This document shows positions 9,283 to 12,681 of a stretch of 14,032 bases of DNA, piece by piece. The stretch lies in IMG/VR virus record IMGVR_UViG_2671180724_000001. One strand, given 5' to 3'. Every line of letters starts with the position of its first letter. Positions within the stretch are counted from its first letter, which is position 1. Under the pieces are notes generated by a model, which was given only the letters and a program-made list of their open reading frames with translations, searched no databases and had not been told where the DNA came from. Made by a program: the position numbers and the translations under genes. The stretch comes from a virus (taxonomy: Duplodnaviria; Heunggongvirae; Uroviricota; Caudoviricetes).

Positions 9283-9975
9283 ATGGGTAAAGGCAGCAGT
9301 AAGGGGCATACCCCGCGCGAAGCGAAGGACAACCTGAAGTCCACGCAGCTGCTGAGTGTGATCGATGCCATCAGCGAAGGGCCGGTTGAAGGTCCGGTGG
9401 ATGGATTAAAAAGCGTGCTGCTGAACAGTACGCCGGTGCTGGACACTGAGGGGAATACCAATATATCCGGCGTCACGGTGGTGTTCCGGGCCGGTGAGCA
9501 GGAGCAGACACCGCCGGAGGGATTTGAATCCTCCGGCTCCGAGACGGTGCTCGGTACAGAAGTGAAATATGACACGCCGATCACCCGGACCATCACGTCG
9601 GCAAACATTGACCGTCTGCGTTTTACTTTCGGCGTGCAGGCACTGGTGGAAACCACCTCAAAGGGGGACAGGAATCCATCGGAAGTCCGCCTGCTGGTTC
9701 AGATACAACGTAACGGTGGCTGGGTGACGGAAAAAGACATCACCATTAAGGGCAAAACCACCTCGCAGTATCTGGCCTCGGTGGTGGTGGGTAACCTGCC
9801 GCCGCGCCCGTTCAATATCCGGATGCGCAGGATGACGCCGGACAGCACCACAGACCAGCTGCAGAACAAAACGCTCTGGTCGTCATACACCGAAATCATC
9901 GATGTGAAACAGTGCTACCCGAACACGGCACTGGTCGGCGTGCAGGTGGATTCGGAGCAGTTCGGCAGCCAGTAG
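9283..9975 (+). CDS. J: J N-terminal fragment (230 aa) upstream of the amber stop
   Basis: ATG at 9283 with GGAG RBS; ends at TAG 9973-9975. Confidence 0.6.
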   Translation: MGKGSSKGHTPREAKDNLKSTQLLSVIDAISEGPVEGPVDGLKSVLLNSTPVLDTEGNTNISGVTVVFRAGEQEQTPPEGFESSGSETVLGTEVKYDTPITRTITSANIDRLRFTFGVQALVETTSKGDRNPSEVRLLVQIQRNGGWVTEKDITIKGKTTSQYLASVVVGNLPPRPFNIRMRRMTPDSTTDQLQNKTLWSSYTEIIDVKQCYPNTALVGVQVDSEQFGSQ

Positions 9976-12681
9976 GTGAGCCGTAATTATCATCTGCGTG
10001 GGCGCATTCTGCAGGTGCCGTCGAACTATAACCCGCAGACGCGGCAATACAGCGGTATCTGGGACGGAACGTTTAAGCCAGCATACAGCAACAACATGGC
10101 CTGGTGTCTGTGGGATATGCTGACCCATCCGCGCTACGGCATGGGGAAACGTCTTGGTGCGGCGGATGTGGACAAATGGGCGCTGTATGTCATCGGCCAG
10201 CATTGCGATCAGTCGGTGCCGGACGGTTTTGGCGGCACGGAGCCGCGCATCACCTGTAATGCGTACCTGACCACACAGCGCAAGGCGTGGGATGTGCTCA
10301 GTGATTTCTGCTCTGCGATGCGCTGTATGCCGGTATGGAACGGGCAGACGCTGACGTTCGTGCAGGACCGACCGTCGGATAAGGTGTGGACCTATAACCG
10401 CAGTAATGTGGTGATGCCGGATGATGGTGCGCCGTTCCGCTACAGCTTCAGCGCCCTGAAGGACCGCCATAATGCCGTTGAGGTGAACTGGATTGACCCG
10501 AATAACGGCTGGGAGACGGCGACAGAGCTTGTGGAGGACACGCAGGCCATTGCCCGTTACGGTCGTAACGTCACGAAGATGGATGCTTTTGGCTGTACCA
10601 GCCGGGGGCAGGCACACCGCGCCGGGCTGTGGCTGATTAAAACAGAACTGCTGGAAACGCAGACCGTGGACTTCAGCGTGGGTGCCGAAGGGCTTCGCCA
10701 TGTACCGGGCGATGTCATTGAAATCTGCGATGATGACTATGCCGGTATCCGCACCGGCGGGCGCGTGCTGGCGGTAAACAGCCAGACCCGGACGCTGACG
10801 CTCGACCGTGAAATCACGCTGCCATCTTCCGGCACCACGCTGATAAGCCTGGTTGACGGGCAGGGGAGTCCGGTCAGCGTGGAGGTTCAGTCCGTCACCG
10901 ACGGCGTGAAGGTGAAAGTGAGCCGTGTTCCTGACGGCGTTGCTGAATACAGCGTATGGGGGCTGAAGCTGCCGACGTTGCGCCAGCGCCTGTTCCGCTG
11001 CGTGAGTATCCGTGAGAACGACGACGGCACGTATGCCATCACCGCCGTGCAGCATGTACCGGAAAAAGAGGCCATCGTGGATAACGGGGCGCACTTTGAC
11101 GGCGACCAGAGCGGCACGGTAAATGGTGTCACGCCGCCAGCGGTGCAGCACCTGACCGCAGAAGTCACCGCAGACAGCGGGGAATACCAGGTGCTGGCCC
11201 GCTGGGACACGCCGAAGGTGGTGAAGGGCGTGAGCTTCCTGCTTCGCCTGACCGTGGCAGCGGATGACGGCCGTGAGCGGCTGGTCAGCACGGCCCGGAC
11301 GACGGAAACCACTTACCGCTTCACACAACTGGCTCTGGGGAACTACAGGCTGACAGTCCGGGCAGTAAATGCGTGGGGGCAGCAGGGCGATCCGGCGTCG
11401 GTATCGTTCCGGATTGCCGCACCGGCAGCGCCGTCGCGGATTGAGCTGACGCCGGGCTATTTTCAGATAACCGCCACGCCGCATCTTGCGGTTTATGACC
11501 CGACGGTACAGTTTGAGTTCTGGTTCTCGGAAAAACGGATTGCGGATATCAGGCAGGTTGAAACCAGCGCGCGTTATCTTGGTACGGCACTGTACTGGAT
11601 AGCCGCCAGTATCAATATCAAACCGGGCCATGATTATTACTTTTATATCCGCAGTGTGAACACCGTTGGCAAATCGGCATTCGTGGAGGCCGTCGGTCGG
11701 GCGAGCGATGATGCGGAAGGTTACCTGGATTTTTTCAAAGGCAAGATAACCGAATCCCATCTCGGCAAGGAGCTGCTGGAAAAAGTCGAGCTGACGGAGG
11801 ATAACGCCAGCAGACTGGAGGAGTTTTCGAAAGAGTGGAAGGACGCCAACGATAAGTGGAATGCCATGTGGGCTGTCAAAATTGAGCAGACCAAAGACGG
11901 CAAACATTATGTCGCGGGTATTGGCCTCAGCATGGAGGACACGGAGGAAGGCAAACTGAGCCAGTTTCTGGTTGCCGCTAACCGTATCGCGTTTATTGAC
12001 CCGGCAAACGGGAATGAAACGCCGATGTTTGTGGCGCAGGGCAACCAGATATTCATGAATGAAGTGTTCCTGAAACGCCTGACGGCCCCCACCATTACCA
12101 GCGGTGGAAATCCACCGGCATTTTCCCTGACACCGGACGGAAAGCTGACTGCTAAAAATGCGGATATCAGTGGCAGTGTGAATGCGAACTCCGGGACGCT
12201 CAACAACGTCACGATTAATGAGAACTGTCAGATTAAGGGGAAACTGTCAGCCAATCAGATTGAAGGCGATATTGTCAAAACGGTCAGCAAGTCTTTCCCC
12301 CGCACGAACAGTTATGCCAGTGGCACCATCACGGTAAGAATCAGTGATGATCAGAAGTTTGACCGGCAGGTCATGATACCTCCAGTGTTATTCCGCGGTG
12401 GTAAGCATGAGAATTTCAACAGTAATAACCAACAGTCATACTGGTATTCAACCTGCCGGTTAAGAGTGACCCGCAATGGTCAGGAGATTTTTAATCAGTC
12501 CACGACGGATGCTCAGGGCGTATTTTCCTCAGTTATAGATATGCCTGCCGGACAGGGGACACTGACACTGACATTCACCGTATCTTCATCAGGAGCGAAT
12601 AACTGGACACCAACAACCAGTATCAGCGATCTGCTGGTTGTGGTGATGAAGAAATCCACAGCAGGTATCAGTATCAGCTGA
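9976..12681 (+). CDS. J: J C-terminal fragment (901 codons) downstream of the amber stop
   Basis: In frame with the upstream fragment and begins at the GTG directly after the TAG. Independent translation would need reinitiation or stop-codon readthrough. The translation contains the sequence I recall for lambda gpJ's repeated domains and a diverged C-terminus. Confidence 0.6.

What the first reader, a model, noticed from the sequence alone, without database searches (positions are those of the whole stretch)
9970..9978. Single in-frame amber codon splits the J host-specificity gene
J is one continuous frame except for TAG at 9973-9975. From my recollection of lambda gpJ (...FGSQQVSRNYHL...), this position should be a Gln codon, so a single CAG to TAG change is the likely cause. 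Without suppression this truncates J after 230 aa and should abolish infectious tail tips, making the prophage defective. Alternatives are a sequencing error, an amber-suppressor host background, or stop-codon readthrough.
Basis: partly seen in the sequence, partly recalled or inferred. Interest (0 to 1): 0.6.

Follow-up and report, generated by a model that had tools for sequence, protein, structure and literature searches.

The report
Private nonsense mutation in prophage J
A single C-to-T change has turned glutamine codon 231 of the tail-tip gene J of a lambda-like E. coli prophage into a stop codon; this is ordinary prophage gene inactivation (or, less likely, a base-calling error), not a new biological mechanism.

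Summary
TAG at 9973-9975 is the only internal stop in the 1132-codon J frame (9283-12681).

The window is the whole contig CYAJ01000046.1 of an E. coli draft assembly, GCA_001285225.1. Its J gene differs from the intact J of E. coli Z1323HEC0108 by one base in 3399: C to T at 9973, CAG to TAG. Phage lambda also has CAG (Gln231) there.

The TAG allele is private:
- It is absent from 3106 J copies in 2180 complete E. coli genomes.
- It is absent from the viral, metagenome and species-representative genome collections, whose positive controls were 269/269 CAG.
- It occurs in only one other record, a contig of a second draft from the same submission series (GCA_001284205.1). That contig has an identical J but differs elsewhere.

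The rest of J shows no further decay, so the change is recent. The stop falls inside the hub region, just after strand beta13 of the HDII-insertion domain. It removes HDIII, HDIV, FNIII-1/2, the central fibre and the receptor-binding domain.

Best reading: a real, recent loss-of-function mutation, a natural counterpart of the classical lambda J amber mutants. A sequencing or assembly artefact cannot be excluded without the reads, because the contig is itself a mis-scaffolded join of two prophages (N at 4577). Interest is low.

The parts
9283..12681 (+). Gene J (tail-tip / host-specificity protein, TipJ family). 1132 codons, interrupted by one amber codon.
   Evidence: Translation. Pfam hits FNIII-A_GpJ 86-207, Phage-tail_3 330-498, Ig_J, Ig_J_second, Phage_Tail_Tip and Ig_GpJ_C. 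About 96-99% aa identity to lambda J over residues 1-900. Residues 1-230 match PDB 8iyk chain J at E=7e-148.
9973..9975 (+). Amber codon TAG at J codon 231, where the wild type has CAG (Gln). The mutated base is 9973 (C to T).
   Evidence: the only difference from the intact J in L001; lambda has CAG. CAG in 269/269 sampled homologues. TAG absent from all collections scanned.
9283..9972 (+). The 230 sense codons before the stop, giving the predicted truncated product. It holds the N-terminal part of HDII and HDII-insertion plus the FNIII-A domain only.
   Evidence: Domain limits from PMC10721106: FNIII-A 72-215, beta13 216-223.
9976..12681 (+). The remaining 901 codons of J, still open and undecayed. 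The GTG at 9976 is a mechanical ORF start. The nearest Shine-Dalgarno-like GGAG (9954-9957) lies 18 nt upstream, which is poorly placed.
   Evidence: There are 0 differences from L004 and 0 further differences from L001 downstream of the stop. This exact 901-aa product is known from only 2 contigs.
7206..9222 (+). Genes L (7206-7904), K (7910-8653) and I (8650-9222). These tail-tip assembly partners of J are all full length.
   Evidence: Gene tables. Identical to L004 except at 7488.
12749..14032 (+). lom (12749-13348) and the 5' part of the side-tail-fibre gene stf (13413-14032, which runs off the contig).
4577..4577 (.). Scaffold joint. The public record has N here and the window shows A. 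The left side is prophage A up to nt 161 of gene L. The right side restarts inside a different tape-measure gene.

Best explanation
A recent, lineage-private C-to-T transition changed Gln231 (CAG) of the J gene of a lambda-like E. coli prophage into an amber stop.

Shown: the base change, its uniqueness, and its presence in two related draft genomes.

Inferred:
- Translation ends after 230 residues. The product has only the N-terminal part of the hub (HDII / HDII-insertion) and the FNIII-A domain. It lacks HDIII, HDIV, FNIII-1/2, the central fibre and the receptor-binding domain.
- J nucleates lambda tail assembly, so this prophage on its own should make heads but no functional tails. That makes it a natural equivalent of a classical lambda J amber (sus) mutant and an early step of prophage decay.
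- Rescue would be possible only by rare near-cognate Gln readthrough, by a host amber suppressor, or by J supplied in trans or by recombination from a co-resident lambdoid prophage.
For: One internal stop in 1132 codons. J differs from the intact J of strain Z1323HEC0108 only at nt 691, T versus C. Lambda has CAG.

Codon 231 is CAG in 120/120 metagenome, 29/29 genome and 120/120 viral contigs (the viral scan was restricted to CAR). The TAG pattern has 0 hits in the viral, genome and metagenome collections. No 100% match to a 58-nt probe was found among 3106 places in 2180 complete E. coli genomes.

A second assembly has the same TAG and an identical J: GCA_001284205.1, contig CYAC01000053.1, locus L004. 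It differs from the window at 7488 and in scaffold structure, so it is not the same assembly. The exact 901-aa downstream product is on only these 2 contigs among about 15 billion proteins.

No other lesion is present in G, T, H, M, L, K, I or lom. J initiates tail assembly (PMC3224144). The domain map of gpJ is in PMC10721106. All solved J-like proteins are single chains spanning this site. Interrupted J genes are common: about 15% of 179 sampled loci.
Against: No reads are available, so the base call cannot be verified. The contig is a demonstrably wrong scaffold of two co-resident prophages (N at 4577). The L-to-J stretch may therefore be a collapsed repeat in which only one copy carries T.

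They could share a pipeline artefact or be resequenced clones. No phenotype data exist.
Confidence: 0.8

Rival explanations
1. Sequencing or assembly artefact. The true genome has CAG, or has two J copies of which the consensus picked a minority or erroneous T.
For: This is a short-read draft scaffold with an N joint at 4577 and a chimeric path through two prophages. The change is a single base. Both TAG-bearing records come from the same submission series (protein accessions CTT41983/42007 and CTT48824/48851).
Against: The same TAG appears in two assemblies that differ elsewhere (7488, scaffold structure, contig ends). A random consensus error would not recur. The site is not a homopolymer. 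A polymorphic C/T between two collapsed copies would normally break a de Bruijn contig, but both contigs run straight through.
Confidence: 0.12
2. The stop is real but is read through, so full-length J is made. This could be through a host amber suppressor tRNA (supE/supF-like), a suppressor tRNA carried elsewhere in the prophage, or programmed readthrough or TAG recoding.
For: Near-cognate tRNA-Gln reading of UAG would restore the wild-type residue (established knowledge). Only 3 gpJ chains are needed per virion (PMC10721106). None of the 11 other gene ends in the window uses TAG as its stop, which is uninformative given how rare TAG stops are in E. coli.
Against: The stop is not conserved in any relative, so an evolved readthrough or recoding signal is implausible. 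There is no tRNA gene and no Rfam element in the window. There is only one in-frame TAG among all genes of the window. The base after the stop is G, not the A/C context that favours UAG leakage (plus established knowledge). Amber suppressors are rare in natural E. coli (general knowledge, not tested here).
Confidence: 0.05
3. Functional split J. Ribosomes terminating at TAG reinitiate at the adjacent GTG (9976), and the 230-aa and 901-aa fragments co-assemble into a working tail tip.
For: The stop and a possible start are directly adjacent (TAGGTG). Hub domains are distributed over different polypeptides in different phages: lambda gpL plus gpJ, RcGTA gp13 plus gp15, T5 pb3 (PMC10721106).
Against: The break is not at a domain boundary. 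It lies within the HDII-insertion domain just after beta13. The SD-like GGAG is 18 nt upstream of the GTG. No natural homologue is split here: all solved relatives are single chains and all sampled relatives have a sense codon. The allele is private.
Confidence: 0.03

Closest known systems
Classical lambda J amber (sus J / Jam) mutants
   Same: A nonsense codon in the tail-tip gene J. The expected phenotype is no tail initiator, so heads without functional tails, with growth only on suppressor hosts. J starts tail assembly (PMC3224144).
   Different: This is not lambda itself: 88% nt identity over J, and the C-terminal receptor-binding domain is only 42% identical. The mutation arose naturally in a resident prophage of a wild E. 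coli lineage. No phenotype is known.
Prophage decay / defective lambdoid prophages of E. coli
   Same: A point inactivation of an essential late gene in an integrated lambdoid prophage. Such genomes carry a median of 3 J homologues, and interrupted J genes are frequent (about 15% of sampled loci).
   Different: This is a very early stage. There is a single lesion, no further substitutions in J relative to an intact relative, and the neighbouring tail genes are intact.
Intact J of the btsS-adjacent prophage of E. coli Z1323HEC0108 (NZ_CP148374.1, WP_053888528.1)
   Same: 3398 of 3399 nt identical. Same gene order: V-G-T-H-M-L-K-I-J-lom-stf.
   Different: It has CAG at codon 231. Its tape measure differs at one residue (Leu394 against Arg394).
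Stop-codon-recoded phages (TAG read as Gln in some gut phages)
   Same: An in-frame TAG at a position that is Gln in relatives.
   Different: There is one TAG in one gene, it is not conserved, the window holds no suppressor tRNA, and the host is E. coli using the standard code. It is not a member of this group.

Membership tests
Lambda gpJ / TipJ tail-tip protein | Domain architecture FNIII-A, Phage-tail_3 hub, two Ig/FNIII domains, tail-tip fibre, C-terminal receptor-binding Ig domain | tested here: met
   All six Pfam families are above their curated cut-offs when the stop is read as Gln.
Lambda gpJ / TipJ tail-tip protein | Sequence and solved-structure homology to lambda gpJ | tested here: met
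   About 96-99% aa identity over residues 1-900. PDB 8iyk_J at E=7e-148 for residues 1-230.
Lambda gpJ / TipJ tail-tip protein | Synteny: H-M-L-K-I-J-lom-stf | tested here: met
   Gene tables of the window, relatives and lambda.
Nonsense-mutation pseudogene (prophage decay) | An in-frame stop at a codon that is a sense codon in orthologues, reachable by one substitution | tested here: met
   CAG in L001, lambda and 269/269 sampled loci. One C-to-T difference.
Nonsense-mutation pseudogene (prophage decay) | The allele is restricted to one lineage rather than conserved | tested here: met
   0 hits in the three public collections and in 2180 complete genomes. Found only in 2 drafts of one series.
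Nonsense-mutation pseudogene (prophage decay) | Loss of function: no full-length protein and no infectious particles | not testable with these tools
   Requires induction, electron microscopy, a plaque assay, and western blot or mass spectrometry.
Programmed readthrough / stop-codon recoding | The stop codon is conserved at the site among relatives | tested here: not met
   No relative has TAG.
Programmed readthrough / stop-codon recoding | A cognate suppressor tRNA or a readthrough-stimulating RNA element | tested here: inconclusive
   None found in the window. The rest of the prophage and the host genome are not available.
Laboratory lambda Jam strain | The sequence is phage lambda | tested here: not met
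   88% nt identity to lambda J, with a different C-terminal domain. The closest relatives are resident E. coli prophages.
Sequencing or assembly error | Not reproducible in independent data | tested here: inconclusive
   The TAG is reproduced in a second assembly, but that assembly is from the same submission series and the reads cannot be inspected.

The most novel reading that the evidence does not exclude
The amber allele is real and is maintained as a natural conditional ('sus'-like) mutation. The prophage would still spread, because full-length J is supplied by a host amber suppressor or by low-level Gln readthrough, or because a co-resident lambdoid prophage provides J in trans. The scaffold itself shows a second lambdoid prophage in this genome. 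In that case the prophage's host range would depend on its neighbour.
Probability: 0.05. Interest if true: 0.35.

Novelty: already known. Interest (0 to 1): 0.1.

Why it matters
It matters little beyond annotation. The two CDSs called in the public record (230 aa and 901 aa) should be one J pseudogene, and prophage-intactness calls for these two genomes should take the stop into account.

It is a clean example of the first step of prophage inactivation: a single lesion with no secondary decay. It could serve as a natural J-amber allele if the strain is available.

The accompanying scaffold error is a reminder that apparent gene duplications in short-read drafts need checking against the N positions of the record.

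Tried and rejected
- Exact-product look-up of the 230-aa fragment returned 8 contigs. Six of them (L005-L010) are contig ends at 9972-9974, not amber alleles. Where a base or two of the next codon are present it reads C or CA. These were rejected as extra carriers.
- Literature search by assembly or WGS accession returned only noise, so the isolates' study and metadata remain unknown.
- PMC5099701 and a search of PMC10721106 for the tail-assembly order gave nothing useful. PMC3224144 supplied it.
- A Dcm hot spot (CCWGG with 5-methylcytosine deamination, the classical source of amber hot spots) was considered. The wild-type context is GCCAGCAGGTG, and the mutated C sits in GCAGG, which is not CCWGG. 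Rejected.
- TAG recoding or programmed readthrough: rejected because the stop is not conserved and the window has no tRNA or Rfam element.
- A true tandem duplication of H-M: rejected. The public record has N at the joint, the two copies are only 87-90% identical and then become 100% identical for 675 bp, and no complete genome has the junction.
- A test for a suppressor tRNA in the host was not possible, because only this contig is accessible.

Full report
**1. Observation**

Window 9970-9978 reads CAG TAG GTG. Translating from the ATG at 9283 gives 1132 codons, with one internal stop at codon 231 (9973-9975) and the natural TGA at 12679-12681. The ORF listing therefore reports two ORFs, 9283-9975 (230 aa) and 9976-12681 (901 aa). 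The GTG 'start' of the second is only the first possible start after the stop.

**2. Identity of the gene**

With the stop read as Gln, the protein carries the full gpJ architecture: FNIII-A_GpJ, Phage-tail_3, Ig_J, Ig_J_second, Phage_Tail_Tip and Ig_GpJ_C.

- It is about 96-99% identical to lambda J over residues 1-900. Only the C-terminal ~150 residues, the receptor-binding domain, diverge, at 42% identity.
- Residues 1-230 match the solved lambda tail tip (8iyk chain J, E=7e-148). Every solved J-like relative is one polypeptide spanning the site.
- The surrounding genes are the lambda tail module V-G-T-H-M-L-K-I-J-lom-stf.

**3. Source of the window**

An exact-product look-up shows that the window is the entire 14,032-bp contig CYAJ01000046.1 of the E. 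coli draft assembly GCA_001285225.1. The window equals the public record except at 4577, where the record has N and the window has A. The TAG is in the public record and was not introduced into the window.

**4. What the stop is**

The closest complete-genome relative is a prophage next to btsS in E. coli Z1323HEC0108, with J annotated as intact (WP_053888528.1).

- The two J genes differ at one base in 3399: T in the window against C in the relative, at J nt 691, which is window 9973.
- The event is therefore CAG (Gln231) to TAG by a C-to-T transition.
- The site is not a Dcm CCWGG hot spot. The context is GCAGG.
- Of the 10,197 possible single-base changes in J, 331 create a stop. J has 48 CAG codons. 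Such a hit needs no special explanation.

**5. How widespread is the allele?**

- A 58-nt probe centred on the TAG found 3106 places in 2180 complete E. coli genomes. None was 100% identical, and the best hits had one mismatch.
- A degenerate 35-nt pattern that tolerates synonymous variation but requires TAG gave 0 hits in the viral (IMG/VR), metagenome and species-representative genome collections.
- The controls worked. The same pattern with CAR or NNN at the codon gave at least 120 viral, at least 120 metagenome and 29 genome hits, and the codon was CAG in all 269.
- In a collection of about 15 billion proteins, the exact 901-aa downstream product occurs on two contigs only: this one and CYAC01000053.1 of GCA_001284205.1 (L004).
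- The six other contigs that 'encode' the same 230-aa product are contigs that happen to end at 9972-9974. Where one or two further bases are present they read C or CA.

**6. Real mutation or error?**

L004 has a J identical to the window's over 3402 nt, including the TAG. It is a different assembly from the window:

- It has a single tape-measure gene.
- It has A rather than C at the position equivalent to 7488.
- Its contig ends differ by two bases.

The window and L004 also share G at 2709 (gpH Arg394) against T in Z1323HEC0108. This argues against a random consensus error and for an inherited mutation. It does not exclude a shared artefact, and the reads cannot be inspected.

**7.

The contig is mis-scaffolded.

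- Positions 1-4576 are 100% identical to L004 and end 161 nt into gene L.
- After the N at 4577, the sequence restarts about 270 nt inside a different tape-measure gene, 87-90% identical to the first. That gene has exact matches in many other E. coli.
- From 6692 onward the sequence is again identical to L004, except at 7488.
- The last 675 bp before the joint are repeated exactly after it.
- No complete genome has the junction, and none has the 4578-10100 arrangement above 96.6% identity.
- The C at 7488 (gpL Met95Leu) is a common allele of other lambdoid prophages.

The simplest reading is that two lambdoid prophages in this genome share a near-identical M-to-J region, and that the assembler and scaffolder threaded them into one scaffold. 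The apparent H-M duplication and the 767-aa ORF starting at 'ATG 4577' are artefacts. It also follows that the J region could be a collapsed repeat.

**8. Consequence (inferred)**

In the lambda structure, FNIII-A is residues 72-215, inserted between beta4 and beta13 (216-223) of the HDII-insertion domain. HDIII, HDIV, FNIII-1/2, the central fibre and the receptor-binding domain follow (PMC10721106). A stop at 231 therefore leaves a fragment that cannot form the hub or bind a receptor.

Genetic work places J at the very start of tail assembly, with I, L, K, G/GT and H joining later (PMC3224144). On its own this prophage should make no functional tails, as classical lambda J amber mutants do.

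The other tail genes are intact. J shows no further change relative to an intact relative. The lesion is therefore recent.

**9. Alternatives**

- Programmed readthrough or TAG recoding is very unlikely. The stop is not conserved anywhere, it is the only in-frame TAG in the window's genes, and there is no tRNA and no Rfam element in the window.
- Basal near-cognate Gln readthrough would restore the wild-type protein, but only at a low level (general knowledge). The base after the stop is G.
- Reinitiation at the adjacent GTG is conceivable. However, the nearest SD-like GGAG is 18 nt upstream, and the break lies inside a domain.
- Complementation or recombinational repair by a co-resident prophage is plausible. 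Genomes that have J homologues carry a median of 3, and this genome shows a second lambdoid tape measure.

**10. How ordinary is it?**

Among 179 sampled J loci in which the frame could be followed to a stop, 26 (15%) ended prematurely. This rough figure includes low-coverage metagenome errors and contaminant chimeras. Interrupted J genes are commonplace.

**Verdict**

The feature is a private nonsense mutation, with an artefact as the less likely alternative, in a well-known gene. It is of low general interest.

Noticed in passing
window 4577 (and 1529-7206): The public record has N at 4577 and the window shows A. The apparent duplication of tape-measure H and M (853-aa ORF at 1529-4090, '767-aa' ORF at 4577-6880, and M present twice) is a scaffold joint between two different lambdoid prophages, not a real tandem duplication. 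675 bp are exactly repeated on both sides, and no complete E. coli genome has the junction.
   Followed up: yes
window 4578-6691: A fragment of a second, divergent tape-measure gene, 87-90% identical to the first copy, with exact matches in many other E. coli. It implies a second lambdoid prophage in the same genome that shares a near-identical M-to-J region.
   Followed up: partly
window 7488: A-to-C (gpL Met95Leu) relative to L004, L001, L002 and lambda. C is nonetheless a common allele (1807 records match a 59-nt probe exactly). It probably marks the other prophage's sequence inside the collapsed region.
   Followed up: partly
window 2709: G (gpH Arg394) is shared by the window and L004, against T (Leu) in the closest complete genome. 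This second shared difference ties the two draft assemblies to one lineage.
   Followed up: partly
window 12220-12681 (J C-terminal ~150 codons): The receptor-binding domain is only 42% identical to that of lambda, although the rest of J is about 96-99% identical. The receptor is probably not LamB.
   Followed up: no
L252-L279 (genome-contig hits, for example L252 Neobacillus, L253 Kitasatospora, L254 Enterococcus, L260 Chitinophaga, L267 Shewanella): About twenty species-representative assemblies of unrelated bacteria contain 99.9-100% identical phage lambda DNA. Where a coverage value is given in the contig name it is usually low (about 1-4x). This is almost certainly lambda DNA contamination of public assemblies.
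   Followed up: partly
L005-L010 (contig ends equivalent to window 9972-9974): Six independent assemblies have contigs ending within 2 nt of this codon. This is most simply a selection effect of the exact-product look-up, not evidence that the site is a polymorphic branch point.
   Followed up: partly
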